From an uncultured Anaerolineales bacterium (GTDB lineage: Bacteria > Chloroflexota > Anaerolineae > B4-G1 > SLSP01): 64,000 bases of DNA. The notes beneath the pieces were generated by a model, which worked only from the letters and a program-made list of their open reading frames with translations, did no database searches and was not told the DNA's origin. A program made the translations under genes and the position numbers. Each line of letters starts with the position of its first letter. Within the stretch, counting starts at the first letter, position 1. Location of the stretch: contig CAZDSF010000001.1 of the NCBI GenBank assembly GCA_964508025.1, positions 22,320 through 86,319 on the forward strand, in the 5' to 3' direction. Positions 11,972 through 31,589 of the stretch are shown here, in pieces.

Positions 11972-14900
11972 TTACGCGATCAGATCTCCCAGCCGCAATT
12001 GCCGGAAGGTCTCATTTTTCAGCAGCAGCCGCAAGGCCCGCAATTCGCGCAGCAGATGGGTGATTTCGCTCAGCGGCAGGCTCACTCGCGCTGCGAGCGC
12101 TTCTGGCGCTGCGAAGAGCAACGCCTCCAGCGGCGTATCGGCAAATACCGCGTAGGTTTTTGCATCCAGCTGCAACGATTCCACAAGTTCCGCCGTGGCC
12201 TTTACCTCCAGCAGCCGTTCGGCGGTGCGGCTATCCAATTCGGGCAGGCGTTCGATGTGCGCCAGCTCGGCGATGGTCTTGACGCCGGCTTCGGCAAACA
12301 AGGCGCCCATCGCAGGGCCAACGCCAGCAATGCTTTCAATGGCCTGCTCGCCCAACTTTGTAACGGGCCTCAAAGTTGTGGGCTGGGGCGCCGGCTTCAT
12401 GATCACGGGAGCGCTGATTTGGCGCGCGCGGTATGGCGCTGCCAGCAGTTCCAGTTCCGGCGTTACGATGGGGTTCGGCAACGGCGGCGGCTCGTAGGTG
12501 ACGTGGAAGCCAGACACGGTGAGCGTTCCGGGTGCTTCGGAGAGGAAATTGAGCGGGACGACGGCGACATCGTCTTGCGTGAGCGAGATCCAGCGTAGGG
12601 CGATGTTCTCCGCGTCCTGCGGTTTGATCCACCGGATCTCGACATGGGTAGCCTGGGGCGGCGCTTCGCTGCGCCACGCGCGGGTGGGGAAATCAGGCCC
12701 ATCGAGGGGGAAGAGGGCCGGCGCGTCCAACGCGCTTTCTCCGCGCAGCCAGTGCAGCTCCACCCGCGCGTGCTGCGCTTCTGGCAGCGCGCTCGTATCG
12801 CCCGGAGGGCCTGTTCTCACGGTCTGGAACCGCAGGGTGTAGCCGGCGCCCCCCTTGATCGCGGCGCGCTGGATGAAGCGCACCTGCTCTGGGGTGCGCT
12901 GTTCCGTCCACCCTACAGGCGCCTGTAACATTTCGGGAGGGAACACGCCGTTGATCAGCCGTTCGCAAGTGGGGGTAAAGGTCGCCGTCCGCACTTCCAG
13001 CGCGCCCGGCGCGGGCTGTTCCAACCGCACCTCAGCTTGTACCGCTTGGGGCGGCGCTGTTATCAGGGTGGTGAGCGCCATGCTGCGATCCTTTTCATTC
13101 TGTGGACGCAGCACGCCTTGCGCCGCTTCGAGCTGTACTTCGCCAGCATCGAACCAGATCACGCGCCAGAGCGCCGCGGTCAATGTCTCCGCCAGGCGAT
13201 GGGGTATCGCCTCCAGGCGCAGCGCGTAGGTGCAACCGCCGCTCACTGCGATGCGCTGCGCCAGGAAGGGCGTCTCGCTGGCGGGCGCGGCGGGTTTTTC
13301 TGCGGTTGCGGCGAAACAGGCCGAAAGCCATTCGGCTGCTTGCGCTGCGCCTTTCGAGCGCTCGGCGACAATTGCGGCGGGCGCTGTTGGCTCAGGGGAC
13401 GGTGCAACCACTACTCTGGAAAAGCCGCTGGGCGGCGGGGTGCTGGTGGGGGCAGGCGCCCTCGCGGCGGCGCTTGCCGCGCGGGTGGCATTTTTCCCTT
13501 CCGGTGGCGCGACTGTCGAAGGCGCGATCAACAGCGTTTGCAACTGCCCGCTTACGGGATTGCGCAGGCGGAGGACGCGATTCGGGTTGCCGTTCCAGTG
13601 TTGCGGCAGCTGGTATCTGCACCAGGTATGGAGATGCGCCGCGCTCGATGGCCCATCCGTCGGCGAGCGGATGATGAGCCGCTTGACGCCGGTCTGCCCT
13701 TCGACTTCCCCATAGCTGGCGACGGATGCCTTCATGGCGTGATTGATCGCAGCGATGACCTCATCGCGGTGGGTGCGCGCCGGTTCCAGGCCCGCGCAGT
13801 GGATGCAGATCGGCTCTCCGTCGTCAATGGCGAGGGTGATGGCGCGCTCGCGGCTCAGATCCAGCACTGCTTCCAGCGCCACTTCGCCCTCCAATTGCGC
13901 CGAGTAGGCTGTGGCATAAGGCGTGATGCTGCGCGCGCCAAAGCCGAAGAGCCGCCACGAGGCGTCATCGTGCCCCGGCAGCGCGAAATCCGCATTGGCG
14001 AGCAGGTTGCCCGCGCCGCAGGGCGAGACCATCGCAGGTGAACTGAGCACTGTATCAAGGGCGGCGCCGAAATCCACGGCAAATTCGATGCGTCCCAGCG
14101 GCGCGAAGGCGTCGAAGCGGACGGCCTGCGCTTCTGCCCCGGCGCCCACTTGCAGCTGCACCGGCACGCTGAAGCGCTGGGGGGTGTGCCGCAGGCGGAA
14201 GCTGGCCGCGCCGCCGCCGTTGACCGCGCGCCACGAGAAACCGCCATCCGTGGAGCGGTGCAGGCCCGGCGCGGCGCCAGCGTCGCTGTGGAGCGCCCAA
14301 TCTGCCTCGCCTTCGAGGCTTTGCAGAACCAGCCAGTAGCGGCGTCCCGGCAGAAAGTGATAGGTGGTGGGGAGCCTGACGTTGCGCCAGCCAGCGTCGC
14401 CGGGCGGCGCGCTTTCCAGGCGCAGCTCGGCGCGGAGCAATACCTCGCCGGAGGGTTTGCTATCGGCGTCGCTCTGGAGCGCCAGCTGCAAGGTTGCCGC
14501 AGCAGCGCAGGTCAGCGGCAGATCTATGCTGCTCGCGGGCGTTTCGTTCGCTGTCTCGAAAGGTTGCGCCAGGCTTTGAGAGGCGGTCACGGGCAGCGCG
14601 CCCACGTCCTGGCGGGCGCCGATTGCGCCCAGGACGATTCGGCTGCTCTCGAAGCTGCCGCGCACGTGACCCTCGGCGCTGACGATGCGCGCGCCGCGCG
14701 GCGCGCGGGCCTGGAGCAGCGCGGCCTGTTCGCCAGCGGCCTGCGTGCTGAGATCGTAGGTCAGCGACGCTTCGGGCAGGTGCGCCGGCAACACGGCCAT
14801 TTTGAGCGTGTACTCCAGAGTCACGGTAATGGCCAGCGCGGCGATGGTATCCGAATGAAAGGTGAACGGCAGCGCGTAGAAGCCGTTTTCGGCGGCGGCG

Positions 14901-15532
14901 GTTTGGAGGAAGGCGTTGAGCACGGCGGCGAAATCTGGCGAGACGGCAGGCCCGGTCAACGCGCCGAGGTGCGTCCAGACCGGCGACAGCGTTCCCACCC
15001 GCGCGCTGATGTTCGTGGGGACGCTGCGCAGCGTGACGCCGCCCAGGCTGATCTTTCCATTTGGGTCCACGAGGCCATTTTCGGTCACGGCGGTGAGTTT
15101 GAGCTTCTCGGCGTTGAGGGGCGGCAGGGTGATCTCGCTTATAGCCGCGTTCAGCGGCAGCAGTAGTGGCAGCTTATCCGGCGCGAACGGGGTCCCATCG
15201 GCGGCGAGGCCCATCCATACGCCGCCTACATCCATCTGGATGCTGGCAAACCCACCGGGATTGCGCGCCGCGCGCAGCGCGTTGAAGCTGCACCGCGCGT
15301 GGAAATCCGCTACCGCCCAGTGCTGGAGGCCGATAGTGGGTGGCTCGCGCGTGAGGCCCCAGTCGCCCGATCCGGCGTCATCGAATGTGACCGGATACAC
15401 GCCGCTGCCGACCGGCGCCAGCGTCGTCGTCGCCTGGGTGATGTGCGCGCCTTCGGGCAGGCTGCGCAGCCACAGGACGAGGTCGCCCTCGAAAGGGGCG
15501 TTCTGCCCCGCAAAGGATTCCTGGAGTCGCAT
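11972..15532 (-). CDS. large distal protein at tail-fibre position (1186 aa) with C-terminal helix-hairpin-helix region
   Basis: Last gene of cluster after baseplate J/I-like genes (P2 H position); internal ~45-aa ...EVIAAINHA...SPTDGP... module shared with upstream baseplate gene; C-terminus ...IESIAGVGPAMGALFAEAGVKTIAELA... fits HhH pattern. Confidence 0.5.
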   Translation of the reverse strand: MRLQESFAGQNAPFEGDLVLWLRSLPEGAHITQATTTLAPVGSGVYPVTFDDAGSGDWGLTREPPTIGLQHWAVADFHARCSFNALRAARNPGGFASIQMDVGGVWMGLAADGTPFAPDKLPLLLPLNAAISEITLPPLNAEKLKLTAVTENGLVDPNGKISLGGVTLRSVPTNISARVGTLSPVWTHLGALTGPAVSPDFAAVLNAFLQTAAAENGFYALPFTFHSDTIAALAITVTLEYTLKMAVLPAHLPEASLTYDLSTQAAGEQAALLQARAPRGARIVSAEGHVRGSFESSRIVLGAIGARQDVGALPVTASQSLAQPFETANETPASSIDLPLTCAAAATLQLALQSDADSKPSGEVLLRAELRLESAPPGDAGWRNVRLPTTYHFLPGRRYWLVLQSLEGEADWALHSDAGAAPGLHRSTDGGFSWRAVNGGGAASFRLRHTPQRFSVPVQLQVGAGAEAQAVRFDAFAPLGRIEFAVDFGAALDTVLSSPAMVSPCGAGNLLANADFALPGHDDASWRLFGFGARSITPYATAYSAQLEGEVALEAVLDLSRERAITLAIDDGEPICIHCAGLEPARTHRDEVIAAINHAMKASVASYGEVEGQTGVKRLIIRSPTDGPSSAAHLHTWCRYQLPQHWNGNPNRVLRLRNPVSGQLQTLLIAPSTVAPPEGKNATRAASAAARAPAPTSTPPPSGFSRVVVAPSPEPTAPAAIVAERSKGAAQAAEWLSACFAATAEKPAAPASETPFLAQRIAVSGGCTYALRLEAIPHRLAETLTAALWRVIWFDAGEVQLEAAQGVLRPQNEKDRSMALTTLITAPPQAVQAEVRLEQPAPGALEVRTATFTPTCERLINGVFPPEMLQAPVGWTEQRTPEQVRFIQRAAIKGGAGYTLRFQTVRTGPPGDTSALPEAQHARVELHWLRGESALDAPALFPLDGPDFPTRAWRSEAPPQATHVEIRWIKPQDAENIALRWISLTQDDVAVVPLNFLSEAPGTLTVSGFHVTYEPPPLPNPIVTPELELLAAPYRARQISAPVIMKPAPQPTTLRPVTKLGEQAIESIAGVGPAMGALFAEAGVKTIAELAHIERLPELDSRTAERLLEVKATAELVESLQLDAKTYAVFADTPLEALLFAAPEALAARVSLPLSEITHLLRELRALRLLLKNETFRQLRLGDLIA

Positions 15533-15676: not shown

Positions 15677-16624
15677 CTAGATGCGTAGGAGAACCATCAA
15701 ATCCACATTTACCACCCGTGGAATGTTCTGTCGCCCGGTGAGGAGTCTTAGCGCGATGGCATCGTAGCTCAATTGCGCCACATCCAACCACCAGGGCACA
15801 TTTCCAGGAACCTCATCATCGCCCGGCAGCCGCCCATACAGCAGGCTGACGGGGCGCATGACCCAGCGGATGTCATCCCACTCATCGTTGACTTTGAGTT
15901 CGGCGACCTTCATCCGCCGCCGCTCATTGATCCAGGGAGAGACGGCGTATTCCATCGGATCCACCCACGGCGGTTTGAAGAAGGCTTGCAGGAAGTCGTT
16001 GTAGACGTCGCCCAGGGTGTCATCGTCCTCCCATTCGACGTGATACTCGTCCAGCATCGCTTCGAAGGGGATGCCCCACGGCGCGCGCACCATGCCGCGA
16101 TCTTCAGTGAAGAGCCGGTCCCGCTCACGTTCCTCGTGGTGGTAGTAGAGATAGAACTTCGTCGGCGGCGCTCCGCCTCCCGTCGCCACCAGCTCCTTGC
16201 GGATTTGTTCCATCTTCTCGCGCTCCTCTTTTTCCAGGAGGTTGAGCGGCGTCCACGGCTGGGTGTTCAGCACCTCCAGCAGTTCGTAGACATCCACCAA
16301 CGGAAAGCGCCCCAACTGGTGATTGAGGACGACGGTTTGCCCCGGACGGATGCGCTTGAAATAGCGCCGGTAGACGGCGCGCCCTTCGTGATTATGGGCC
16401 CTGGGCGCGTAGCGCTCATCGAGCCGCTCGACCCACTCCTTGGGCGTGCGCTTGTCGAATTGATCGGCGTTGTCGGCGCGCGAGACGCCCTCCTGAGTGA
16501 TGCGCGTGCGCAGCGCCTCGCCTTGGGTTTCCATATCCTCCTGGATGCGCTCTTGCATCGTGTTCCAATCCTCAGCGGTGATCAGGTCCCCCGGCTCACG
16601 GCGAATATACGGTTGCCTGGACAT
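15677..16624 (-). CDS. hypothetical acidic, Trp-rich protein inserted between baseplate-I-like and fibre-position genes
   Basis: 315 aa, GGAGAAATAAG RBS; no recognisable domain; ...DLITAEDWNTMQERIQ... N-terminus. Confidence 0.45.
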   Translation of the reverse strand: MSRQPYIRREPGDLITAEDWNTMQERIQEDMETQGEALRTRITQEGVSRADNADQFDKRTPKEWVERLDERYAPRAHNHEGRAVYRRYFKRIRPGQTVVLNHQLGRFPLVDVYELLEVLNTQPWTPLNLLEKEEREKMEQIRKELVATGGGAPPTKFYLYYHHEERERDRLFTEDRGMVRAPWGIPFEAMLDEYHVEWEDDDTLGDVYNDFLQAFFKPPWVDPMEYAVSPWINERRRMKVAELKVNDEWDDIRWVMRPVSLLYGRLPGDDEVPGNVPWWLDVAQLSYDAIALRLLTGRQNIPRVVNVDLMVLLRI

Positions 16625-16740: not shown

Positions 16741-16800
16741 CAATCCCCCTCTCTCCCCATCTCCCCGTCTCCCCGTCTCCCTATCATCCCATCTCCCCAT
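16741..16800. repeat. CTCCCCATCTCCCC tract (G-runs on coding/minus strand), copy 1
   Basis: ctctccccatctccccgtctccccgtctccctatcatcccatctcccc in 160-nt intergenic gap. Confidence 0.6.
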
Positions 16801-19105
16801 CGTCTTCCGCTGGCGCGCGCACCGTTTCACGGGTAACGGCGACGCGGACACCGGCAGCTTTGGCTTGCAGCACGCCGACCGGTCCCGGCTTGAGCAATGC
16901 CGCAGCTTGCAACGGCAGCGTCTCGGCGCCGCCAAGGACGACGCGCCGCGCGTTCTCGAAGCGCCCGCCCATGAAAGCGATGGTCAGCTCGAAGCGGGCC
17001 GGCCCGGCATAGCGCGCGGCGACGGTGATGGCGTTGCCCCACGCGCCGGGCCTCACCGCGCGCAGTTCCACGTAGCCCTCGACGCCTTCCTCGGCGAGAT
17101 AGAGCCGCGCCGCCGAGGTCTCGCTGCCCAGCGTGAGCGCGCGCGGCTTGCGGAAGGGCATGACGACCGGCGCCCACCCCAGCGGCGCGCTCGCTACTTT
17201 CTCCGCGACAACGAGCGCCGAGCGGGCGTTGATCCGCGTCGCCAGATAATCGGCGTCGCTCTCCGGCTCGGCGACGACATCCGGGTAGATTTCGGGCGCA
17301 TCTGCCGGTTTGCTGAAGCGTGCGCTATCGAAGCGCCCGCCAAAACGCGGCGGCAGGTCGGCGGGCAGATGGACGACGAAGGCGCCCCGTTCGTGGGATG
17401 CCCAGCGCACGGTAACGTTGACCAACGCGCCCACCGCTTCACGCGCGGCGAAGACGGTCTGCCCGGCGAAGGCGGGGTCGTCTTCAAGGCGGCTGATATC
17501 GAAAAGCCCCGCCATGCGGCAGACGCCGCCGGTGAAGGCGGTTGCCGGCGCATCGAAGCGCGCCTGATCGAAGCGGCTGCCGCCGCAATCGGCGTAGCGC
17601 CAGCGAGAAACGCCGCGCGGCAGGAACAGTGCGGCGTTGCCGGTCTCGATCTCAGCAGCGAGCGGGAGCGCGTGCAGGTTTTCGGTTGCTACCGGACGCG
17701 CTGCGCCATCGGCGGCGTGAATTTCGGCGCGCAATCCCCCTTCTGCAGCGCGCCACAGGCGCACGCGCTCGCCCGGCTCGAGCACTTCGTTCACGCGCAC
17801 GGCCCAGCCGGTGGCAAAGTTGGCGATCAAGGGGCCGTAAACCCCGCGCGGCGCGGCGATGTCCACTTCTGCAAAAACGCCCGCCGCGCCCTGATTGGCG
17901 AGGCGCAGGCTATCGCCATGGCGCAGGCTGTGCGGCCCGAAGCGCGCCGGTCTGGCGGGATATTCGATGAGCTCGAGATACCGCAGGGGCAGCACCGCGA
18001 TGCGGCTTTCTGGCCCGGCGGTGGGCGATTGCAGCCGCAGCCGGTGATCGGGGGTTTCGGAGGCGACGCCCGGCAGCGCGGCGTTGATGGCCGCGATGAC
18101 TTCATCCAGAAAGGGGCGGTCGGGCGCGGCGCCTGCGACCGTGAGGTCCACGGGCGGCGCGCCGTCAATGGCAAGCCGCAGCAACGCCCGCTGTGAGAGA
18201 TCCACCGGCCCGCGCAGCGATACCGCGCCTTCCAGCGTAGCCCGGCCTGGCAGCGCGCCTTTGGTGATGGTGGGGACCTGTCCCAGCAGGCGTGTGCGGG
18301 CGTCCGCGCCGCTGATGGGCAACCCGATGGCGATGCGCGCGTTCTCCCCCGCCGTGGGCGACGTGAGCGCCAGGAAGCGCCTCTCGTGGATGCTGGCGAT
18401 TTCGGCGCCCGCCTGCGCGTTGATCGCCGCCGTGATCTCGGCGAGCGTTGTGGCGCGCGGACGGGCGCCCGCGCAATCTATTTCCACGGCGGGGCCGGCG
18501 TCTATGGTGAGGCGCAGATAGCGCGCTGTGCTCAGATCCACACTGCGGCTCAGGTCTACGGCGCCGATCACTTGCGCGGGCATTGCCGGCTCGCCGCGCG
18601 CTTCGCGGCAGATGAAGCCGCAGAGCGCCAGCGCCGCCTCATCGGTGATCGCCGCGCGGGTGACGAAACGCCGGGCGTTCTCCTCCGCCGATGCGGTGAG
18701 GGGATCGCTTTTCCGTGTCCACCACGTGTCCATATCGGCGTAGGCGTCGGCAATGTGCAGGTTCAGGGCCTCTGCCGTGACCCGGAGAATGCCTTGGACG
18801 GCGACGGTCCCTTGCAGGAAAGTGCGCACGTACCGCTTGAGATGCTCGCGGAACTCCTCGACGCTTTCATCGGGGCGGGGCGCCAGGCCGTAGAGCGCGG
18901 CGAGCAGCGCCAGGTCGTGGATCTCTTCCTCCTGCCAATCCGCGAGATCCACCCAATGCGCCTGCATCACTGCGGCAAGGCTGTTTTCGGCAGCCTGCAG
19001 CTCGCGCCCAAAAGCAGCGGCGACGGCGTGAAGTGCGGAGGCGACCGGCGCCTGGCGGAAGGTTCCGGGCAGCAGGCTCAGAATGCGCTCGGTTTTGGTG
19101 GGCAT
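16784..19105 (-). CDS. baseplate protein, phage P2 gpI-like N-terminus with repeat-domain C-terminal extension
   Basis: Start at internal Met (MPTKTERILSLLPGTFRQ...) overlapping upstream stop; LLPG..R motif characteristic of tail protein I family; two ~45-aa IAAINA...SPTAG modules. Confidence 0.6.
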   Translation of the reverse strand: MPTKTERILSLLPGTFRQAPVASALHAVAAAFGRELQAAENSLAAVMQAHWVDLADWQEEEIHDLALLAALYGLAPRPDESVEEFREHLKRYVRTFLQGTVAVQGILRVTAEALNLHIADAYADMDTWWTRKSDPLTASAEENARRFVTRAAITDEAALALCGFICREARGEPAMPAQVIGAVDLSRSVDLSTARYLRLTIDAGPAVEIDCAGARPRATTLAEITAAINAQAGAEIASIHERRFLALTSPTAGENARIAIGLPISGADARTRLLGQVPTITKGALPGRATLEGAVSLRGPVDLSQRALLRLAIDGAPPVDLTVAGAAPDRPFLDEVIAAINAALPGVASETPDHRLRLQSPTAGPESRIAVLPLRYLELIEYPARPARFGPHSLRHGDSLRLANQGAAGVFAEVDIAAPRGVYGPLIANFATGWAVRVNEVLEPGERVRLWRAAEGGLRAEIHAADGAARPVATENLHALPLAAEIETGNAALFLPRGVSRWRYADCGGSRFDQARFDAPATAFTGGVCRMAGLFDISRLEDDPAFAGQTVFAAREAVGALVNVTVRWASHERGAFVVHLPADLPPRFGGRFDSARFSKPADAPEIYPDVVAEPESDADYLATRINARSALVVAEKVASAPLGWAPVVMPFRKPRALTLGSETSAARLYLAEEGVEGYVELRAVRPGAWGNAITVAARYAGPARFELTIAFMGGRFENARRVVLGGAETLPLQAAALLKPGPVGVLQAKAAGVRVAVTRETVRAPAEDDGEMG

Positions 19106-19106
19106 T

Positions 19107-20693
19107 TCAGCTCGCCTCCTCTTCCAGGGCGATGTCGGCGGCATCCATGTCGAGGACGATCCACCACGGTTGCCCCTGGATCGCGGCGATGACGGTGAAG
19201 TCGCCGCTTTCGATGTCTGCATCGGCAGCGCGCTGCCCGGATGCGCCGACCACCAGACCCCGATCGGGGATGCGGCTGCCGGTCGGGGCCGGCGCCATCG
19301 CGGTCTCCGTCAGCCGTTGGGCGAGGGCGGCGCGCAGGGCTGCTTCATCGCCGGAGGGGGCGGCGCGCACGGCTGCGAGCACGGCATCTACCAGGGCCGT
19401 CGGCCCCGGCGCATCGAGGTCGGAGCGCCAGGTCATCACGTCGGCGAAGCGCACCGCTTTCACATCGGGCGTTTTCTTCAGTTCAGCGAGCAGCGCCTGC
19501 CCTTTGACCTCCTCACCGCTGCTCAGGTTGTCTATATAATCCTGTATGGCGGCGATGATGGCCTGTTGCACTTTGGACTTGCCGGCAGGGGGCAGCGCGC
19601 TCTTGAGTTGCACGCTCAGCCGGGGCTTGAAGAAGATGTAACGGGCGACGAGGGTGGTCTGTACGCCAGCAGCGCGCGTCTGCTCGATGGCGGCGCGCAG
19701 GCTGGGGAAACGCTCTGGTTCGCAGCCGACCAGCAGCGTGAGGCTGCCTGGCGGCGTCTGTTGCGCGGGGACGCTGTTGGGATCCCACACTTCGACCAGC
19801 TCGCAGCGCGCTTCGGCGATGACGCGGGCCAGGGCGGCAAGCGTGCCCTTGCCCAGGGCGCGCAGTGCGGCTTTGGCGCGCAGCCGCAGCTCGGCGTCGC
19901 TTTCATCCTCGGCGCCTAGGAACGTCGCCTCCAGGTTGGCGACGCGGCTGATACCGGCGATGGGTTGCACCAGTTGGTTGATGGCGCCGGCATCCACTTT
20001 GCCGGCAGCGCCTTTGAAAGCTTCAGCGGCGCGAATCGGCGCCTCTACGCGAACCTGGCCCCGTTGCAGCGTGCGCGGTTGGGTGGTCTGAAAGCGCACG
20101 TCTTTGGCGGTACGCACGGCGGTACCCTCGGCGATGATGAGGTTGCCTTCGACGGCGGGGTCCCGGAAGAAAGTGACCTGCCCGATGGCGTAGTCTTTCG
20201 TCTGCCGCGTCAGCCCCAGAATGGCGACGACCAAATCAAGGGATTTGCCCGCGGCCGTCTCCACAAAGCCCGCCAGGTAGGCCTGGTTGATCTGCTCGTA
20301 AACCACGGCGATCTCCCGCGCGATAGCCTCGCCGAGCGTGCGGGTGACGCTGCCGATGTTGATGTCGCTGAGCGGCGAGCGGCTGTCGCGCTGGAAATAA
20401 TCCACATAGAAAAGCGTCTCATCGTCGGGCCAGTTCCCGCCCACCTGCCACACCACGGCGTTGTCACCCTCGCTGAACAGGAAATCGCTGCCCTTCTGGA
20501 AGGTGTGCGGCGCTTTCTTGTGCACGCCGGTGATGCCGCGCACGTCGCGCGCCTGTTGGGCGAGCGGATAGAGATCCTGTTTGAGATCGAAGCGCAGGGG
20601 TTCGTTGACCACACCGCCGACGATGGCGGTGAGAATGTCATCCACGATGTCTTGATAGGGGCGATGGATCAGCGTTACAGTTTCCTCATTCAT
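19107..20693 (-). CDS. baseplate J-like protein (T4 gp6 / P2 gpJ homolog)
   Basis: 528 aa, N-terminus MNEETVTLIHRPYQDIVDDILTAIVGG typical of Baseplate_J family; start overlaps upstream stop (ATGA). Confidence 0.7.
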   Translation of the reverse strand: MNEETVTLIHRPYQDIVDDILTAIVGGVVNEPLRFDLKQDLYPLAQQARDVRGITGVHKKAPHTFQKGSDFLFSEGDNAVVWQVGGNWPDDETLFYVDYFQRDSRSPLSDINIGSVTRTLGEAIAREIAVVYEQINQAYLAGFVETAAGKSLDLVVAILGLTRQTKDYAIGQVTFFRDPAVEGNLIIAEGTAVRTAKDVRFQTTQPRTLQRGQVRVEAPIRAAEAFKGAAGKVDAGAINQLVQPIAGISRVANLEATFLGAEDESDAELRLRAKAALRALGKGTLAALARVIAEARCELVEVWDPNSVPAQQTPPGSLTLLVGCEPERFPSLRAAIEQTRAAGVQTTLVARYIFFKPRLSVQLKSALPPAGKSKVQQAIIAAIQDYIDNLSSGEEVKGQALLAELKKTPDVKAVRFADVMTWRSDLDAPGPTALVDAVLAAVRAAPSGDEAALRAALAQRLTETAMAPAPTGSRIPDRGLVVGASGQRAADADIESGDFTVIAAIQGQPWWIVLDMDAADIALEEEAS

Positions 20694-25446: not shown

Positions 25447-25863
25447 TTATGACTTGAGCGTGTTCAGTTGGCCCACGATGTCGTCAATCAGGCTCAGAAT
25501 GTCGGCTTTGACGGTATCCAGCGACGGCAGCCCGGTGACGACATCCGCTGCGCCGAGCACTTCGTCAATCGTGGCGGCCTCGTCGGGGAGCAGGGCTTTG
25601 GCCGCTTCGAGGAAGGCTTTCACCTTTTGCGTGAACTGCGTCACCTCGGTTAGTCCGGGTACCGCGCCGACGTTGATGTTCTGAATTTCCGTCTTGAGTT
25701 TGTTCAGCAGGTCAATCAGTTTGTCAATCAGGGTGATGATCTGCGGCACCATCGCCGACAGCGCCTGTACTGCGGGCTTGATCGTGGGCACATTGGCGGT
25801 CAGGAAATCCTTGAATTCCTGAAGGACATCTTTCAATTGTTGGTAGACATTCGTTCCTGCCAT
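25447..25863 (-). CDS. small alpha-helical protein, lower GC than neighbours
   Basis: 138 aa from ATG 25863 (GAGGTGA RBS); K/I/L-rich, predicted coiled/helical; no match to known tail component. Confidence 0.4.
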   Translation of the reverse strand: MAGTNVYQQLKDVLQEFKDFLTANVPTIKPAVQALSAMVPQIITLIDKLIDLLNKLKTEIQNINVGAVPGLTEVTQFTQKVKAFLEAAKALLPDEAATIDEVLGAADVVTGLPSLDTVKADILSLIDDIVGQLNTLKS

Positions 25864-25907: not shown

Positions 25908-26450
25908 CTACTGCCCCAATCCTTGACGGATGGCCTGGAGTTGCGGCAGAATGGCGCTGAGCGCGGCGACGAAGCGTTCCAGCCCCGTCGCAAAGGTGGT
26001 GAGCGCCTCCAGCCCGTTGACGAGATTGTCCATGAGCGCCGCGGCGTCGCCGAGGATGTCCGCGTCGAGCAGGGAGGGATCCTCCGGCTCGACCGGCTCG
26101 ATGTATTCGCGCAGGGTGCAGACGTAGGCATACCGCTCCGGTTTGCCGGCGAGCTCCTGCCAGCGCAGGTCATCAATGACCAGTTGCTCCAGTCCGGCAT
26201 CGGCGACGATGTCGGCGATGAAGCTGACCGGTTTTCCGGCGCGAAACTTTTGCTCCAATGCTTCGACGAACGCGAGCGCCTCAGTCCCGGCAGCGACGCC
26301 CCACAGGCTGAGGCGCGCGGGGCGGCGTCCCAGGTTTTGAAGTACGCTGCCATCTTTACCCGGCGGTTTGTGCTCGGCGAGCACCCGCCGTTCGAGCAGG
26401 CTGATTTCCTGTACCTGCGGCAGTTCGAGATCGTCTAACATGGGCCGCAT
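25908..26450 (-). CDS. tail protein paralogous to N-terminal domain of the 613-aa OmpA/PGB protein (tube-initiator-like candidate)
   Basis: MRPMLDDLELPQVQEI...GKPERYAYVCTLREY aligns over ~130 aa with MRPMLDDFELQQVQQL...GKPERFEYAITLREY. Confidence 0.5.
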   Translation of the reverse strand: MRPMLDDLELPQVQEISLLERRVLAEHKPPGKDGSVLQNLGRRPARLSLWGVAAGTEALAFVEALEQKFRAGKPVSFIADIVADAGLEQLVIDDLRWQELAGKPERYAYVCTLREYIEPVEPEDPSLLDADILGDAAALMDNLVNGLEALTTFATGLERFVAALSAILPQLQAIRQGLGQ

Positions 26451-26460: not shown

Positions 26461-27729
26461 TCACACGTCTATGCCGTGGCGGCGGGCTTCCTCTTCGAGG
26501 ATGCGCCGAATTTTTTCAGCCAGCGCTCCCAGGTCTTCCGGCTCGGTGAGCGCGTTTTCTTGCCGGGCGCCTTGCAGCATGGTGATCGCGCCAGCGGGAA
26601 AGGCGAGCGCTTCCCGCTGTTGTGCGGGTGCGAGCGGCGGCAACGAAGGCGGCGCGGGCGCGAGCGGCTGCAGCGCAGTCGGCGTCGGCATGGTTTTGGG
26701 GATGGCGACCGTTTCGAGCCAGCGCGATGACGGCGCGGAGCCTGCACCCATTTGCGGCGGCGCGCTTGCCGGCGCCTTTGCGGCGGTGATTTCCGCTTCG
26801 ATAGGAATCTCGCTTCCCCGGCCAGCGGGCGGCGATGCCATGACGCCGCTGTCTGACGAAGGGGCGATCTCGCGTTCTGCCAGCTGCCAGAGCAGCGCTT
26901 CGGAAATGCCGTCGTCCAGGAAGGGCAGCGCCCACGGCGCGAGATGCCTTTCCGGCGGCGTGAGATTTGCTATGGGGGGCGGGGCGGCTGCGCCGCTTGG
27001 AATGGCTCCCTGGGCGTGCAGGGCGCGCTTCAGACGTTGTTCGAGCGCGGCAAGCCAGGCGCGCTGCGCTGTGTTGGGCGGGGGCGGCGGCGGCATGATG
27101 ACGTCGCCAGGGCGCGGCGACGCGCGCGAAGGCAGTTCTGGCAGGGAGTGTGCAGCCGCTCCGGCGAGCCGTTGCAGCAGCGGCGTCAGCGTCTCGGCGG
27201 GGATGTGGGTGGGCGGCAGCGATGGCAGCCGGGGAGCGGCTGCTGCTCCGCGTTCCGTCCCCGGCGAAGGGCGAGTATCTTTGACATCAGCGGGACGGAA
27301 GGTGGGCGGCGCGCTTCTCTGCCGCGCCCACGCAGCCGCCCACGCTCGCCGCATTGCTGAGGGAGGCGGCTGCTGCCTTTCTGGCGCGCGCGCGGCTGGT
27401 TGCGGTTGCAACGCTGGCAGCAGGTCGCCGGGTTGTTGGCGCGGCGTTTTCGGCGCGAGATCGAGGCGGCGCGGGGACGGCGCCGCGGGCGAGGCTTCCG
27501 TCTGGCGCGCCGCCATCGCGGTGAGCGGGCCGATCTGCGCGCCTTCGAGCGGCCCTTTCCGCAAGGCGAAGGGCGGCGTTAGAAGCGCGGCGAAACTGCT
27601 TTCGGCATTTCGCAGCGGCGCCCAGCGCGACACGCGCCGGGTAAGTTGACGCTGCCAGTGTCTCGGCGCGCGCCCACCGGCCAGCGCGCCGCGGCCTGCA
27701 CTACGCCAGTTGCGCCATCGTGCTCTCAT
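26461..27729 (-). CDS. proline/alanine-rich low-complexity protein in tape-measure position
   Basis: 422 aa, >25% Pro+Ala, predicted disordered except C-terminal ~40 aa helix; located between chaperone-like gene and tube-initiator-like genes; start overlaps upstream stop. Confidence 0.35.
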   Translation of the reverse strand: MRARWRNWRSAGRGALAGGRAPRHWQRQLTRRVSRWAPLRNAESSFAALLTPPFALRKGPLEGAQIGPLTAMAARQTEASPAAPSPRRLDLAPKTPRQQPGDLLPALQPQPAARAPERQQPPPSAMRRAWAAAWARQRSAPPTFRPADVKDTRPSPGTERGAAAAPRLPSLPPTHIPAETLTPLLQRLAGAAAHSLPELPSRASPRPGDVIMPPPPPPNTAQRAWLAALEQRLKRALHAQGAIPSGAAAPPPIANLTPPERHLAPWALPFLDDGISEALLWQLAEREIAPSSDSGVMASPPAGRGSEIPIEAEITAAKAPASAPPQMGAGSAPSSRWLETVAIPKTMPTPTALQPLAPAPPSLPPLAPAQQREALAFPAGAITMLQGARQENALTEPEDLGALAEKIRRILEEEARRHGIDV

Positions 27730-28196
27730 GCGCCATCCTCGTTGCGGCGGCTCATCTCCAGATACAGCAGGATTTGCCCGATGGTCATGCCGCTGACTTG
27801 TTCGGGCGTCCAGCCGAATTCGCGCGCCAGCACGAAGCAGGCCCGCGCGAGCGGCGTTTGCACCAGTTCTTCCAACTCGTCGCGGGGGGTGCTGATGCCG
27901 CTGATCGCATTGATGCGTTCGACGAGGAATTGCGCCACGCCCGCCGGCAACTGCGCGACCTGTTCGGCCTGCAATTTCGGCTCGACGAGGGCTTGCTGGA
28001 TCATCAATGCGGCGGAGAGGTTGTCATCGTCGCGCGCAGCTTTGCCGATGCGCTGAATATCGCGCACGGTGAGCGGGCGCAGCACCACCCGCCGATCTTC
28101 CATCTCGCGGCCAGCGGCGCGCAGCAACGCGGCAGGGATCTCCACCTCATGGGTGAGCGCCCCACCTGCCAGTAATTCTTCGGCGGTGAGTGTCAT
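27726..28196 (-). CDS. tail assembly chaperone-like protein
   Basis: 156 aa, AGGAGG RBS; position immediately after tube gene and before ruler candidate as in P2 (E) / Mu; helical. Confidence 0.4.
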   Translation of the reverse strand: MTLTAEELLAGGALTHEVEIPAALLRAAGREMEDRRVVLRPLTVRDIQRIGKAARDDDNLSAALMIQQALVEPKLQAEQVAQLPAGVAQFLVERINAISGISTPRDELEELVQTPLARACFVLAREFGWTPEQVSGMTIGQILLYLEMSRRNEDGA

Positions 28197-28781: not shown

Positions 28782-30446
28782 TCACTCCAGGAACATTGTC
28801 ACTTTGATGTAGTCAATGCTGAACACGGGCCGCAGGACGAGCGTGACGCGCGCGATGCCCTTGATCTCTTCTTCGCGGGTGGCGCTCACGTTGAGTTCGT
28901 AGCCCACCAGCATCTCGTCTTCCACCATCTCGGCCAGGAAGCTGTTGATGGTGGCGCGCATCGCGCTGCGCACCCGCTCGTTGTTGAGCAGGCCGATGTA
29001 CGGATTGGCGGCGGAACGCACGCCGTAGCGGGCGTAATCCACGATGCGCCGTGTGGTGATCTGTTGCCAGGCGGTGTTGGTCGCGGTGGTGATGCCCTTG
29101 ACGACGCGGAATCCCTGCCGCATTTCGAGCGCCAGGACACGCGCCTGCACCAGCTGGCTCAGCTCGGCGGCGGAGAAGCGCCGTTCCAGCCCTCCGACGC
29201 GCACGGGCTTGTTGGTGAGGCTGATGTGCGGGGCCAGCCCGCCCAGCAAACCGGCGACGGCGGCTGCGGCGTAAGCGCCCGGCAAGGTCAATTCTTTGCC
29301 GCTGGCGCTATCGGTGGCGAGGATGCCCGGCGCGACGAAGATCAGCCGATCGCTGGCGAGGGTGTGTCCGCGCAGATCGTCGCTGCTAGCGCCGAGCTTG
29401 CTGCCCACAACCGCGATGCGCTCGTGGCGGATGGCGTCGGTGGAGGCGTTCTGGCAATGGGCGTCCAGCTTCGCGCCGAAGCGGTCATCCTGCCCGGCGG
29501 CCACGAGGATGTGCGCATCCTCGTAGAGCAGCGCTTCCAATCCCGCCTCGTATTCGGCAGCAGAGGCGGCTTCGCCGTTGGCCCCGCCTTTGAAGGCTGC
29601 GAAAGCATCCGCTGCCAGGCTTCTGAGGGGCAGCTCGGCGGCGTGGGCGGCGGCGGTCGCCGTGACCCAGGCCGATTGCGCGGCGATGTCGGCGATCAGG
29701 TCGGCGCCGCTGACGACGATGTAGCTCTCCTTTGCCTCGCCCAGTTTGAGGGTGACTTTGCGAGCGCTGGCCTTATCCACCACGTAACTCGCGGTGATTT
29801 TGTCGGCGGCAGCGATGGCGTCGCCGAAGGTGAGGGCGCCGGTAGCGCGGTTGATTTTCACCTCGCCGGTTGCGGGCGGGGCGGCATCGTCATCGTAGAG
29901 CAGCTTGAGCGAGCGGGTGAGGCCATCGGCGTCGGTGGCGAGGTGAATGCGGTTGCGGGCGCTTTTGACCACGGGGGTGTATTTGAGGGTGATCGGCGGC
30001 GCTGCATTGCCGAGATGCGCTTCATTTTCGATGAAGGCGTTGTCGTCGGCGTCCCAAACATTGACGAGCAGGGCGTTGCCCCAGTTGCCCTCCGTCTTCG
30101 CTTGAAGGGTGACGCAATCGCCGGTGGTGGATTTGAGCGTGGTCGTGGCTTTGGCGGCGCTGGCAGCCGCCACGCGCACCGCGAAGACGGTGGTGGCGCC
30201 GTGTCCGTAAGCCAGTTCCAGGGCGCGGACGAGGGTGAGCTCGTTGCTGAAGCCGTTGATCCAGGCGTCGGTCTCGCCGAAGATGGCGCGCGCTTCGGAG
30301 AGGCTGCCCAGCGTGACGGGCTTGTTGAGCGGCCCTTTGCTCGCCGTGCCTATGACGCCGAGGTTGCCTACTGTGACCCGCCCCGGCACGATCAGTCCCT
30401 CGGCGCGTACTTCGATATAGACTCCAGGTAAAATCATCTCAGCCAT
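28782..30446 (-). CDS. contractile tail sheath protein
   Basis: ATG 30446 after AAAGGAGG; N-term MAEMILPGVYIEV and C-term ...VTLVLRPVFSIDYIKVTMFLE are hallmark sheath-family termini; 554 aa. Confidence 0.85.
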   Translation of the reverse strand: MAEMILPGVYIEVRAEGLIVPGRVTVGNLGVIGTASKGPLNKPVTLGSLSEARAIFGETDAWINGFSNELTLVRALELAYGHGATTVFAVRVAAASAAKATTTLKSTTGDCVTLQAKTEGNWGNALLVNVWDADDNAFIENEAHLGNAAPPITLKYTPVVKSARNRIHLATDADGLTRSLKLLYDDDAAPPATGEVKINRATGALTFGDAIAAADKITASYVVDKASARKVTLKLGEAKESYIVVSGADLIADIAAQSAWVTATAAAHAAELPLRSLAADAFAAFKGGANGEAASAAEYEAGLEALLYEDAHILVAAGQDDRFGAKLDAHCQNASTDAIRHERIAVVGSKLGASSDDLRGHTLASDRLIFVAPGILATDSASGKELTLPGAYAAAAVAGLLGGLAPHISLTNKPVRVGGLERRFSAAELSQLVQARVLALEMRQGFRVVKGITTATNTAWQQITTRRIVDYARYGVRSAANPYIGLLNNERVRSAMRATINSFLAEMVEDEMLVGYELNVSATREEEIKGIARVTLVLRPVFSIDYIKVTMFLE

Positions 30447-30474
30447 TAGTGGTCCTCCTTTCATGGCTTGAATT

Positions 30475-30526: not shown

Positions 30527-30536
30527 TTGTCCTTCC

Positions 30537-31589
30537 TCAACGGCGGGATGCCTGGATGTAGACGACGGCTATTGCATCGAGCCGGTCGCCCTGGATGGCG
30601 AGTTCCAGGCGCTCGGTTGGGCCATCCAGCTGAATTGGGGCCGCGAAATGCCGGGTATAGGGGGTGTAGGGATCGGGGATGGCGTTTTCATCCCAATCTC
30701 CCAGGGTGAGGGCGGCAGGCCCGGCGGTGAAAAGCGCGAGAAAATCGGTGAAGGTGGGCAGGGTCGCTTGGGCGTGGCGCGTTGTCGGTTCGGGGCCGGA
30801 GATGGCGGCGAGAAAGGCGTCGAAGGTGGGGAAGTTCAGCGGCGCGCCTGCGGCGCCATCGAAGGTGCGGGTGAGAACAACGGCGGAGGTGGGCGTTGCG
30901 GCGGGAATGAAGGCGAGCGCCCACAGTCCGTGGATCGTGCGCTGTCCGCGCAGGGTGAGCGGGGGCGCGGTCTCGTTGTCCCAGCGGACCAGGTCGGCGG
31001 TGACGAGCAGCCGTTCGTTGTGGGCGCTGTTCACCGCCACGGGGATCTGCGTGATGAGGCTGCGCGCGTCGTCGGCGTCCGCGTACTGGAATTCGTAGAG
31101 CAGGCGGTAGTCGGCGGTCTTGCGCCAGGCGTTCACCGGCGGCAGATGTTCCGGCAGCGAGCTTTCCGTCAGCGCGAAGCGCAACACGCCAGCGGCCCAC
31201 AGCGCGTCGCGGTCTGCTAGCAGGCGCGCGTGAAGCGCATCGGCGGCTGCATCTACGGCGGCGACATCGGCGCCCCACAGTTGGAAACGCGCGCGCACGT
31301 CGAGGCGACCGCCCTTGAGGCTTGCAGGCGCGGGGGTGTCGCGCAGGGCATCGCCCCGGAAATTACCGATTCCCACGGGGCGTTCTTCGATGGCTGCGAG
31401 GGAGACGCCTGGCGGCGGCAACCCGGCGGTCGGTGGGGACAGGTAGCTGCGCAGCAGGGCCAGCAACGCGGCGCTGGCTTGATCGGGGCTGGCGGCGTCG
31501 CCGGCGGCGAAAGCCTGAATCAGACTCGCTGCTTCCAATACCGGTTCTGCTTCAGGTGTGCGGCGGCGGAAAAATGAAAAGAGCGACAC
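30537..31589 (-). CDS. hypothetical first gene of tail cluster (possible tail terminator/cap)
   Basis: 350 aa, GTG start at 31589 per ORF track; no confidently recognisable domain; position upstream of sheath. Confidence 0.35.
   Translation of the reverse strand: MSLFSFFRRRTPEAEPVLEAASLIQAFAAGDAASPDQASAALLALLRSYLSPPTAGLPPPGVSLAAIEERPVGIGNFRGDALRDTPAPASLKGGRLDVRARFQLWGADVAAVDAAADALHARLLADRDALWAAGVLRFALTESSLPEHLPPVNAWRKTADYRLLYEFQYADADDARSLITQIPVAVNSAHNERLLVTADLVRWDNETAPPLTLRGQRTIHGLWALAFIPAATPTSAVVLTRTFDGAAGAPLNFPTFDAFLAAISGPEPTTRHAQATLPTFTDFLALFTAGPAALTLGDWDENAIPDPYTPYTRHFAAPIQLDGPTERLELAIQGDRLDAIAVVYIQASRR

What the first reader, a model, noticed from the sequence alone, without database searches (positions are those of the whole stretch)
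11972..31589. Stand-alone 20-kb phage-tail-like contractile injection cluster lacking head, lysis, integrase, AAA+ ATPase and T6SS membrane genes
Sixteen co-directional, tightly coupled genes (many ATGA/4-nt overlaps) encode a complete contractile apparatus. In order: sheath, tube, chaperone-like, Pro-rich ruler candidate, paralogous tube-initiator-like pair, gpD hub, gpV spike, PAAR tip, gp25, baseplate J, baseplate I, orphan protein, giant distal protein. The gene order is Mu/P2-like (split D+V spike, ruler next to the tube) rather than the Afp/PVC eCIS order. Yet it carries a PAAR tip and tube-initiator-like paralogs as injection systems do, and has no capsid, terminase, portal, integrase, holin/endolysin, Afp15-type ATPase, TssB/C pair, ClpV or TssJLM. 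It is bounded by a liv operon terminator on one side and a 346-bp AT-rich divergent promoter on the other. This is not a degraded prophage. It looks like a dedicated tailocin/CIS lineage, and the component set does not match the described eCIS, T6SS, R-pyocin or Streptomyces-CIS architectures.
Basis: partly seen in the sequence, partly recalled or inferred. Interest (0 to 1): 0.85.

Follow-up and report, generated by a model that had tools for sequence, protein, structure and literature searches.

The report
Widespread stand-alone phage-tail injection cassette
This is an intact copy of a 16-gene, phage-tail-derived contractile injection machine that occurs, in the same gene order and with no virus head genes, in bacteria of at least nine phyla. 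The surveys of such machines that I read are built in a way that would skip it, and this particular copy has lost the toxin-carrying module that almost all its relatives have.

Summary
Window 11972-31589 (minus strand) carries 16 co-directional, tightly packed genes encoding a contractile tail. There are no head, terminase, integrase, lysis, membrane-complex or AAA+ genes anywhere in the 64 kb.

It is not a decayed prophage. The same 16 genes in the same order occur in 156 of 160 non-redundant loci fetched from genomes and metagenomes. Hosts span Chloroflexota, Acidobacteriota, Actinomycetota, Cyanobacteria, Desulfuromonadota, Alpha- and Gammaproteobacteria, Vulcanimicrobiota and NC10. Sheath and baseplate J are 45-73% identical across these phyla.

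No relative turned up in the phage or IMG/VR collections. Neighbours are cellular regulators: sigma-54 activators, SARP/BTAD proteins, and a hybrid kinase here.

Gene order follows Mu and P2, but the sequences are very remote from both.

In nearly all relatives the Mu-gp43-like protein (g08) carries one or two ~280-aa modules plus a variable enzyme (arginine deiminase, tyrosinase, subtilase or metalloprotease). A small HEAT-repeat gene usually follows. This points to effector delivery. The window copy lacks that module, and its wedge protein g14 has 2 repeats instead of 8. It is still under purifying selection (dN/dS 0.05-0.29).

One sister clade does carry Afp15-like ATPase and DUF4255 cap genes.

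Verdict: a new, apparently undescribed lineage of contractile injection system, and a reduced variant of it.

The parts
30537..31589 (-). g01, 350 aa. Conserved first gene of the cassette; function unknown (possible cap or assembly factor).
   Evidence: Lies directly upstream of the sheath gene in every locus that has upstream DNA, at 31-46% identity. No Pfam, NCBIfam, PHROG or PDB-profile hit. The single-sequence AF2 model failed, pLDDT 33. dN/dS 0.18.
28782..30446 (-). g02, tail sheath, 554 aa.
   Evidence: Phage_sheath_1C 1.9e-13. Identical to P0001, and 50-73% identical across phyla. AF2 model pLDDT 72, with Foldseek top hits to phage sheaths.
28213..28770 (-). g03, probable tube protein, 185 aa.
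   Evidence: Positioned after the sheath gene. Weak Phage_tube_2 and DUF2001 hits in family members. A family profile has no PDB hit. dN/dS 0.05.
27726..28196 (-). g04, tail assembly chaperone (P2 gpE / Mu gp41 type), 156 aa.
   Evidence: Phage_TAC_7 4e-4 in the window protein; 4 scanned family members match, best 3.4e-6.
26461..27729 (-). g05, Pro/Ala-rich 422 aa protein; tape-measure candidate by position.
   Evidence: 16% Pro and 19% Ala. Only the C-terminal ~60-80 aa are conserved. Family length 355-555 aa. dN/dS 0.57. No family hit.
25908..26450 (-). g06, tube-initiator-like protein (gpU / DNA_circ_N fold), 180 aa.
   Evidence: 50% identical to the g08 N-terminus, E 3e-35. DUF6046 at 1.8e-3.
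25447..25863 (-). g07, 138-aa probably helical protein of unknown role (helix inferred from coiled-coil-type chance matches; no secondary-structure prediction was run).
   Evidence: About 138 aa in most loci (125-150 aa across the family), median 57% identity. Only coiled-coil-type chance hits.
23599..25440 (-). g08, Mu-gp43-like protein, 613 aa: gpU/DNA_circ_N domain, OmpA-like domain with PG_binding_1 inserted in it, and beta-sandwich domains. The effector extension is missing here.
   Evidence: Pfam hits. DNA_circ_N reaches 3.1e-6 in relatives. Relatives carry a further 430-1050 aa, or a separate 930-1150 aa ORF, made of R modules plus an enzyme domain.
22592..23593 (-). g09, baseplate hub (Mu gp44 / P2 gpD type), 333 aa.
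   Evidence: Gp44-like_2nd; VgrG_rel 1.9e-10; PHROG baseplate hub families; hhalign 82% to Mu gp44.
21715..22521 (-). g10, central spike (gpV type), 268 aa.
   Evidence: Phage_base_V 1.4e-6; VgrG C-terminal models around 1e-9.
21358..21690 (-). g11, 110-aa probable PAAR-like spike tip.
   Evidence: 80% mean column identity across phyla, with an invariant Cys49. PAAR_motif hit in 4 members, best 5.9e-4. No PDB hit.
20690..21160 (-). g12, gp25-like sheath initiator, 156 aa.
   Evidence: GPW_gp25 1.8e-6 and Sheath_initiator. hhalign 76% to P2 gpW.
19107..20693 (-). g13, baseplate J (gp6-like wedge), 528 aa.
   Evidence: Baseplate_J 1e-17. 45-67% identical across phyla.
16784..19105 (-). g14, wedge-arm protein in the gpI/gp7 position, 773 aa, with only 2 of the usual 8 tandem ~80-aa repeats.
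   Evidence: Most other loci have 1413-1865 aa with 8-10 repeats on a ~110-aa period (four are 550-898 aa); the window has 2. The sister species has the same short form. dN/dS 0.20.
15677..16624 (-). g15, 315-aa conserved protein of unknown function (fibre or adaptor candidate).
   Evidence: Present in all loci at 24-43% identity. No Pfam or PDB hit.
11972..15532 (-). g16, 1186-aa distal protein: conserved N-terminal ~500 aa, one g14-type repeat, a variable middle, and a C-terminal (HhH)2-like domain.
   Evidence: HHH_5 in 14 of the 31 g16- and g14-type proteins scanned (19 of them g16; the tool does not say which members hit), best 6e-14; beta-propeller inserts in some members. Repeat at residues 554-639.
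11924..11949 (.). GC-rich hairpin terminator shared by the convergent liv operon and the cassette.
   Evidence: 11-pair stem followed by a T-run.
31590..31935 (.). AT-rich 346-bp divergent intergenic region; presumed cassette promoter or regulatory region.
   Evidence: Sequence read directly. The divergent gene is a response-regulator/histidine-kinase hybrid. No promoter was demonstrated.

Best explanation
The region encodes a chromosomal, phage-tail-derived contractile injection system. It belongs to a distinct, horizontally spread 16-gene lineage that runs under host regulatory control.

Inferred assembly, by homology with Mu, P2 and pyocin tails:
- The hub (g09), spike (g10) and PAAR-like tip (g11) form the centre of the baseplate.
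- The gp25-like g12, J-like g13 and repeat-armed g14 form the wedges.
- g15 and g16 form the periphery or target-binding apparatus.
- The two gpU-like proteins (g06 and the g08 N-domain) start the tube (g03), which grows along g05 with the help of chaperone g04.
- The sheath (g02) polymerises around the tube.

On contraction, the tube, the spike and the Mu-gp43-like protein g08 are driven into a target envelope.

In most family members g08 carries a C-terminal enzyme (arginine deiminase, tyrosinase, subtilase or metalloprotease) behind one or two ~280-aa adaptor modules. It also carries OmpA-like and PG_binding_1 domains that would hold it on peptidoglycan. These members are therefore effector injectors.

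The window copy is a reduced form that is still maintained. It has no effector extension and a short g14 arm. It most likely acts as a bare puncturing or peptidoglycan-binding device, or uses cargo encoded elsewhere in the genome.

What is shown: gene content, family-wide conservation, stand-alone context, effector-domain variability and purifying selection.
What is inferred: the assembly order, ejection of g08, release from the cell, and the nature of the target.
For: - Structural gene identities.
- Same 16 genes in the same order in 156 of 160 non-redundant loci. Median identities: sheath 59%, J 54%, spike 64%, g11 72%.
- Hosts in at least 9 phyla.
- No phage-collection match above 32% identity, and none in IMG/VR.
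- Flanks are cellular in the window, G. halelectricus, Aulosira, L169/L170 and L173.
- Recurrent upstream neighbours are sigma-54 enhancer-binding proteins (10 loci) and BTAD/SARP activators (8 loci).
- The single hypervariable slot lies after g08 residue ~610. It holds R modules plus PAD (7e-98), Tyrosinase (4e-45), Peptidase_S8 (9e-48) or M43/M78 domains, then small HEAT-repeat ORFs. L028 has two such pairs in tandem.
- None of the 16 proteins has a membrane-spanning segment.
- The sister species has the same reduced cassette at the same chromosomal site, with dN/dS 0.05-0.29 for 12 of the 13 genes compared.
- Cassette GC is 62-70%, against 57-61% in the flanks.
Against: - No particle, firing event or target has been observed.
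- The tube and PAAR assignments rest on weak HMM hits in relatives.
- No tail terminator or cap is identified in the window.
- g01, g07, g15, the g16 N-terminal ~500 aa (its C-terminal HhH-like domain and the propeller inserts of some members do match) and the R module match nothing known.
- The window copy has no effector, so 'injection of cargo' is not supported for this copy itself.
- No lysis or export genes explain how particles would leave the cell.
- The enzymes found as cargo could also be read as cell-wall or matrix-acting accessory domains rather than toxins.
- The HEAT-repeat ORFs are not shown to be immunity proteins.
Confidence: 0.7

Rival explanations
1. It is an R-type tailocin. 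Particles are released by lysis of a subpopulation and kill related bacteria by depolarising the membrane, with no effector. The window copy, which has no cargo, would be the clearest case.
For: - P2/Mu-like gene order with chaperone, tape-measure candidate, split hub and spike, and no ATPase.
- No effector module in the window or its sister species.
- Fibre-like distal genes are present.
Against: - No holin, endolysin or spanin, and no phage-type or SOS regulator, in the window or in any annotated relative.
- Almost every relative carries enzyme cargo.
- The distal proteins are conserved across phyla, whereas tailocin fibres usually track narrow strain specificity.
- The cassette occurs in both monoderm and diderm hosts.
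Confidence: 0.15
2. It is a cytoplasmic contractile system used on the producer itself, for regulated cell death or developmental remodelling as described for Streptomyces CIS. It would not be an extracellular weapon.
For: - Many hosts are filamentous or multicellular: Chloroflexota, heterocystous and filamentous cyanobacteria, actinomycetes.
- No lysis or export genes.
- Control by cellular signal-transduction regulators.
- Comparison system: PMC10066040, listed.
Against: - The cassette is also present in unicellular Kangiella, Paraglaciecola, roseobacters and Geoalkalibacter.
- The peptidoglycan-binding domains and secreted-type enzymes on g08 fit action in an envelope reached from outside (inference).
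- No membrane-adaptor gene of the CisA kind is conserved next to the cassette.
Confidence: 0.1
3. It is a defective prophage remnant, or a tail module awaiting a head (a helper or satellite arrangement), with no function of its own for the cell.
For: All recognisable genes are of phage-tail ancestry. GC is higher than in the flanks.
Against: - Identical boundaries and order in about 160 loci across phyla.
- No head, terminase or integrase gene was seen in the six flanks that carry family annotation, and none recurred among the flanks compared only by clustering.
- No relative among 50,697 phage records or in IMG/VR.
- dN/dS well below 1 for every structural gene.
- No neck or head-joining proteins are recognisable.
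Confidence: 0.05

Closest known systems
Tail modules of phage Mu and phage P2, and R-type pyocins derived from P2-like tails
   Same: - Collinear order: sheath, tube, gpE/gp41-type chaperone, tape-measure position, gpU/gp43-type protein, gpD/gp44 hub, gpV/gp45 spike, gpW/gp46 (gp25-like), J/gp47, I/gp48 position, distal fibre region.
- Hub and spike are separate genes.
- No AAA+ ATPase in most loci.
- Mu gp43, the DNA_circ_N protein, is known from the literature to be injected with Mu DNA (my own knowledge). That makes g08 a natural ejected carrier.
   Different: - No head, neck, lysis or lysogeny genes.
- Sequence similarity is almost nil: hhalign detects only the hub and gp25.
- Extra conserved genes: g01, g06, g07, g11.
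- J is 528 aa, against 302-360 aa in P2 and Mu.
- g14 is about 1400-1860 aa in most loci (773 aa in the window, 550-898 aa in four others), against ~180 aa for gpI/gp48.
- g08 bears OmpA/PG-binding domains and enzyme cargo.
- The cassette is found across at least 9 phyla and is controlled by cellular activators.
Afp/PVC-type extracellular contractile injection systems (eCIS; dbeCIS lineages I and II, including AlgoCIS, the thylakoid-anchored CIS of Anabaena and the Streptomyces CIS)
   Same: - A stand-alone chromosomal phage-tail cassette with a PAAR-like tip, gp25, J-type wedge and large gp7-position protein.
- Variable effectors encoded inside the cluster.
- Broad distribution by horizontal transfer.
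- One clade of this family (L090, L092, L174) even has an Afp15-like AAA+ ATPase and a DUF4255 (Afp16-like) gene.
   Different: - Afp15 and Afp16 homologues are reported as conserved in all eCIS lineages (PMC6899500). They are absent from the window and from about 33 of 36 loci with upstream DNA.
- The window tube protein has no Pfam family match at E<=0.01 and so none to the Phage_T4_gp19 model; at E<=1 it gives only DUF2001 at 0.12.
- Hub and spike are split instead of a fused VgrG-like Afp8.
- A gpE-type chaperone and a gp43-like protein are present.
- Effectors are fused to a structural protein rather than loaded as free cargo.
- The sheath model ranks Streptomyces CIS and Anabaena CIS sheaths only 38th-41st.
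Type VI secretion system
   Same: Contractile sheath and tube, a gp25-like initiator, a spike with a PAAR-like tip, and effectors covalently fused to a core component (as in evolved VgrG or PAAR proteins).
   Different: - None of the 16 proteins has a membrane-spanning segment, so there is no membrane complex.
- No TssB/C pair and no ClpV.
- A chaperone and a tape-measure candidate are present.
- The cassette occurs in monoderm Actinomycetota.

Membership tests
Afp/PVC-type eCIS (as defined in dbeCIS, PMC6899500) | AAA+ ATPase of the Afp15 type encoded in the locus | tested here: not met
   No AAA gene in the cassette. The only AAA-class domain elsewhere in the 64 kb is in a SARP-NB-ARC regulator 28 kb away. 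tblastn with the L090 ATPase finds nothing in the window. The feature is met only in clade L090/L092/L174.
Afp/PVC-type eCIS | Afp16-like terminator with a DUF4255 (Pvc16_N) domain | tested here: not met
   No Pvc16_N hit for any window protein. tblastn with the L090 DUF4255 protein is negative in the window. hhalign of g01 against DUF4255 gives probability 0.3%.
Afp/PVC-type eCIS | gp19-family tube proteins (Afp1/5) and a fused VgrG-like Afp8 | tested here: not met
   The tube candidate shows only weak Phage_tube_2 and DUF2001 hits, and only in relatives. Hub and spike are separate genes.
Afp/PVC-type eCIS | Sheath, gp25, baseplate J and PAAR-like tip in one stand-alone cluster | tested here: met
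   The PAAR assignment is only weak.
R-type tailocin (pyocin R2 / P2-like) | P2/Mu-type tail gene set and order without head genes | tested here: met
   Collinearity with Mu and P2. No head genes in the window or in the relatives whose flanks were annotated.
R-type tailocin (pyocin R2 / P2-like) | Dedicated lysis cassette (holin, endolysin, spanin) for release, with phage-type or SOS regulation | tested here: not met
   No lysis gene found among the window ORFs scanned or in annotated flanks of relatives. The neighbours are sigma-54 activators, SARP activators or two-component regulators.
R-type tailocin (pyocin R2 / P2-like) | Kills by puncture alone, with no enzymatic cargo | tested here: inconclusive
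   The window copy has no cargo, but nearly all relatives carry enzyme domains on g08. Killing activity cannot be tested here.
Type VI secretion system | Membrane complex TssJLM, TssB/C sheath pair and ClpV recycling ATPase | tested here: not met
   No such families in the window. None of the cassette proteins has a hydrophobic span.
Functional prophage or prophage remnant | Linked capsid, portal, terminase, integrase or repressor genes, or close identity to a known phage | tested here: not met
   None among the window ORFs scanned (38 of the 48 picked ORFs of about 105 aa or more). The best phage match is 32% identity over 43% of the sheath. Nothing found in IMG/VR.
PAAR proteins | Match to the PAAR_motif model, and position capping the spike | tested here: inconclusive
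   The window g11 has no hit at E<=0.01. Four scanned family members hit PAAR_motif, best 5.9e-4, below the curated level. The gene directly follows the spike gene. No structure could be modelled.

The most novel reading that the evidence does not exclude
This family is a separate class of contractile injection system. It is ATPase-independent in most lineages and built on a Mu/P2-type plan. Its payload is a Mu-gp43-like ejection protein that anchors to peptidoglycan and carries interchangeable protein-modifying enzymes (arginine deiminase, tyrosinase, subtilase). It spreads between monoderm and diderm phyla. The window shows a naturally cargo-less, short-armed derivative kept by selection for a different job, for example pure puncturing or a self-directed or developmental role in a filamentous host.
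Probability: 0.35. Interest if true: 0.85.

Novelty: new variant of a known kind. Interest (0 to 1): 0.72.

Why it matters
The surveys of contractile injection systems that I read either seed on Afp-type genes and discard clusters that lack the ATPase, treating them as phage or pyocin (PMC12210884), or report the ATPase and Afp16 terminator as conserved in every lineage (PMC6899500). A family like this one would fall through that net.

It would add a widely distributed lineage: 92 species-level genomes matched two short peptide patterns, and more than 400 metagenomic loci matched.

Its parts list is mixed:
- Mu/P2-type gene order.
- A T4/812-like sheath.
- A PAAR-like tip.
- An optional Afp15/Afp16 pair in one clade.

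That mixture bears on how eCIS, tailocins and phage tails are related.

The effector arrangement is a structural ejection protein with peptidoglycan-binding domains, repeat adaptors and swappable C-terminal enzymes. It is a ready-made, genetically simple cargo-fusion site that could interest people who engineer protein-delivery particles.

The cargo-less, short-armed variant in this window, kept under purifying selection in two species, gives a natural comparison for asking what the particle does without a payload.

Tried and rejected
1. **Profile searches against all PDB sequences.** Family profiles for g11, g01, the tube candidate and the R module returned nothing, and g15 only chance-level matches (E 0.6 and above). 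For g16 only the variable propeller and the C-terminal HhH domain matched.
2. **hhalign of all family profiles against every Mu and P2 tail protein.** Only the hub and gp25 gave signals. Single-sequence templates are weak, so the negatives are not strong evidence.
3. **Last homologue search.** I spent it on a concatenated g01+g15+g16 query to collect three families at once. It returned a single protein and was wasted. No alignment acceptable to the structure predictor could then be made for g01, g11, g15, g16 or the tube.
4. **AF2 of g01 from a single sequence.** It failed, pLDDT 33, and was not used.
5. **g01 as a divergent DUF4255 cap.** hhalign probability was 0.3%. A motif resemblance is noted but not accepted.
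6. **Orphan effector search.** No R-module cargo is encoded elsewhere in the window.
7. **Promoters upstream of g01.** I looked for a sigma-54 or sigma-70 promoter. The sigma-70 scan, which stopped at 31890, gave no site above threshold, and the sigma-54 motif was checked only by eye.
8. **Literature.** Seven full-text searches found no description of this family. The Geobacter GSU0972-0992 cluster that surfaced has an AAA ATPase and gp19-type tube genes, as Afp-type eCIS do, and its gene set differs from this cassette; no sequence comparison was made.
9. **Source organism.** Not identified. The closest cassette proteins suggest Chloroflexota, but this is inference only.

Full report
**What is in the window.** Sixteen genes on the minus strand fill 11972-31589. 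I number them g01 to g16 in the direction of transcription. HMM searches identify:
- g02 as a tail sheath (Phage_sheath_1C 1.9e-13)
- g04 as a gpE/gp41-type assembly chaperone
- g08 as a protein with a gpU/DNA_circ_N N-domain followed by OmpA-like and PG_binding_1 domains
- g09 as a gp44/gpD-type hub
- g10 as a gpV-type spike
- g12 as gp25
- g13 as baseplate J

g06 is a paralogue of the g08 N-domain, 50% identical over 122 aa with E 3e-35.

The tube (g03) and PAAR-like tip (g11) have no hit in the window proteins themselves. Weak Phage_tube_2, DUF2001 and PAAR_motif hits appear when many family members are scanned. g01, g05, g07, g14 and g15 have no family match, and g16 has only a C-terminal helix-hairpin-helix domain.

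An AF2 model of the sheath (pLDDT 72) matches phage sheaths: phage 812, phiCD508, a Halogeometricum sheath, T4, and prophage sheaths DSY3957 and Lin1278. E values reach 1e-18 and identity stays at or below 18%. The Mu, Streptomyces-CIS and Anabaena-CIS sheaths rank 30th to 41st.

**Boundaries and context.** A strong hairpin terminator at 11924-11949 separates the cassette from a convergent liv ABC transporter operon. At the other end a 346-bp AT-rich gap precedes a divergent response-regulator/histidine-kinase hybrid.

The 38 picked ORFs of about 105 aa or more that were scanned against Pfam carry cellular genes, and none of the families found is a capsid, portal, terminase, integrase, holin or endolysin. 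Ten picked ORFs, mostly 105-140 aa, and ORFs below about 100 aa were not scanned. The only AAA-class domain lies in a SARP-NB-ARC regulator 28 kb away. None of the 16 proteins has a membrane-spanning segment.

Only two gene junctions are 4-nt overlaps. The remainder are short gaps, the largest being 197 nt before g12.

**It is a family, not a relic.** Sheath and J homologues at 58-73% identity are recorded from these lineages:
- Geoalkalibacter
- Anaerolineae
- Calditrichia
- Acidobacteriota
- Chromatiales
- cyanobacteria
- NC10

A scan of one genome per species found 92 relatives. They include these cultured organisms:
- Amycolatopsis minnesotensis
- Kribbella
- Nocardioides soli
- Frankia
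- a Streptomyces
- Paraglaciecola
- Yoonia
- Shimia
- Roseobacter insulae
- Oscillatoria

A metagenome scan found 414 more.

Mapping the 16 window proteins onto all fetched loci shows the same genes in the same order in 156 of 160 non-redundant loci. The four exceptions share a version split into two divergent operons. Gene lengths are strikingly constant: g07 about 138 aa, g10 267-268 aa, g11 about 110 aa.

No phage record matches better than 32% over part of the sheath, and IMG/VR yields nothing. Annotated flanks are cellular in G. halelectricus, Aulosira, a 541-kb metagenomic contig and the sister species of the window organism.

The only recurrent neighbours are transcription activators on the same strand: sigma-54 enhancer-binding proteins in 10 loci and BTAD/SARP proteins in 8.

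**The variable slot.** The cassette has one hypervariable position, after residue ~610 of g08 and before the hub. In every other locus that spans g08 and the hub, 1.7-7 kb lie there. This is either a C-terminal extension of g08 or a separate 930-1150-aa ORF.

The extension consists of one or two copies of a conserved ~280-aa module, which itself has no PDB match. A variable C-terminal domain follows:
- protein-arginine deiminase (7e-98)
- tyrosinase (4e-45)
- subtilase (9e-48)
- M43 or M78 metallopeptidase

A small ORF usually comes next, often made of HEAT repeats. One locus has two such pairs in tandem. Desulfuromonadales additionally insert a subtilase gene between the spike and g11.

This is the layout of polymorphic effectors fused to a delivery domain. 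Mu gp43, the founding DNA_circ_N protein, is known to be injected with Mu DNA (my own knowledge, not tested here). That makes g08 a plausible ejected carrier. Its OmpA-like motif (GHTD..G....N..LS.RR) looks intact, so peptidoglycan binding is likely. Because g08 has no signal peptide (judged by eye from its N-terminus; no predictor was run), the peptidoglycan it meets is more likely that of a target cell. This last step is inference.

**The window copy is a reduced variant.**
- Its g08 stops at 613 aa, and the hub gene starts 5 nt later.
- No R module is encoded anywhere in the 64 kb.
- Its g14 has 2 of the ~80-aa repeats, where other loci have 8-10. That gives 773 aa here against 1413-1865 aa in most other loci (four are 550-898 aa).

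A sister species (86-92% amino-acid identity) has the same short forms at the same chromosomal site, next to the same liv permeases. Between the two, dN/dS is 0.05-0.29 for 12 of the 13 genes compared and 0.57 for the Pro-rich g05. The reduced cassette is therefore maintained by selection and is not decaying.

**Relation to known systems.** Gene order from sheath to the gpI position is collinear with Mu and with the P2 F and V operons. Profile comparison with Mu and P2 proteins, however, detects only the hub and gp25.

Against Afp-type eCIS, the window fails the two features reported as universal, the Afp15 ATPase and the Afp16/DUF4255 terminator (PMC6899500). It also has a split hub and spike and a tube that is not of the gp19 type.

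One clade of the family does carry a 675-aa Cdc48-like AAA+ ATPase and a 206-aa DUF4255 protein directly upstream of g01. This clade comprises L090, L092 and L174, with sheaths 74-84% identical to each other. The DUF4255 protein matches the Streptomyces CIS Pvc16_N chain 9gts at 2.3e-5. The pair is therefore optional within the family. g01 is present alongside DUF4255 in those loci, so g01 cannot simply be its replacement.

A T6SS is excluded by the lack of membrane-complex, TssB/C and ClpV genes. An R-type tailocin is not excluded for the cargo-less window copy, but it fits poorly with the absence of lysis genes and with the effector-bearing relatives.

A published metagenome survey seeds on eight Afp-type systems and explicitly discards clusters that have fibre and tape-measure genes but no ATPase (PMC12210884). 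That filter would remove this family. Seven literature searches found no description of it.

**What remains open.**
- Whether particles are made, and whether they are released or act inside the cell.
- What caps the tube in the window.
- What g01, g07, g15 and g16 do.
- Why the distal protein g16 ends in an (HhH)2-like, DNA-binding-type domain.
- What a cargo-less version does.

Structure prediction for the unknown proteins could not be done properly. The predictor accepts only homologues from a capped search tool, and I wasted the last search on a concatenated query.

**Verdict.** The object is an intact, selected, reduced member of a widespread and apparently undescribed lineage of contractile injection systems.

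Noticed in passing
L090:6058-8821; also L092 and L174:5860-8885: One clade of the family carries an Afp15-like AAA+ ATPase and a DUF4255 (Afp16-like) gene directly upstream of g01. Both look frameshifted in L174. This links the lineage to eCIS and shows that the pair is optional.
   Followed up: partly
L017:846-5678 (Heteroscytonema crispum UTEX LB 1556): The g08 homologue ends in a complete PAD_M+PAD protein-arginine deiminase (E 4.5e-96). A cyanobacterial deiminase is thus mounted on an injection-system protein.
   Followed up: no
window 11972-12400 (C-terminus of g16); also many g16 homologues: The giant distal protein ends in an (HhH)2-like domain resembling the RadA/Rad51 N-domain, L32e and Topo V repeats. 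A DNA-binding-type fold at the periphery of a tail-like particle is unexplained. Some homologues also carry a YVTN beta-propeller like the Methanosarcina S-layer protein 1l0q.
   Followed up: partly
L028:338-7306: Two cargo ORFs (1059 and 927 aa), each followed by a small ORF (160 and 167 aa), lie in tandem between g08 and the hub. This looks like an array of effector/partner pairs.
   Followed up: no
L060, L061, L128, L136: In these loci (L060 and L061 are titled Vulcanimicrobiota; L128 and L136 are unnamed metagenome contigs) the cassette is split into two divergent operons, g01-g08 and g12-g16. The position of g09-g11 was not seen.
   Followed up: no
L067 (5.5-kb contig binned as a Methanotrichaceae archaeon): A family member sits in an archaeal MAG. 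This could be mis-binning or a transfer into Archaea.
   Followed up: no
window 33153-37345: A block encoding an MglA-like small GTPase, three Roadblock/LC7 proteins, DUF4388, a protoglobin, an ODP metallo-beta-lactamase-fold protein and a response regulator lies next to the cassette. It is absent from the syntenic contig of the sister species (L170).
   Followed up: partly
window 59289-62750: A 1153-aa SARP/BTAD-NB-ARC-TPR regulator. The same class of regulator sits directly upstream of the cassette in L096. It is a possible distant regulator here.
   Followed up: no
window 4925-7483: The liv-type solute-binding protein is 852 aa with two Peripla_BP_6 stretches, an apparent tandem fusion of two binding proteins.
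   Followed up: no
window 12000-31000 compared with the flanks: Cassette GC is 62-70%, against 57-61% on both sides. This is consistent with horizontal acquisition.
   Followed up: no
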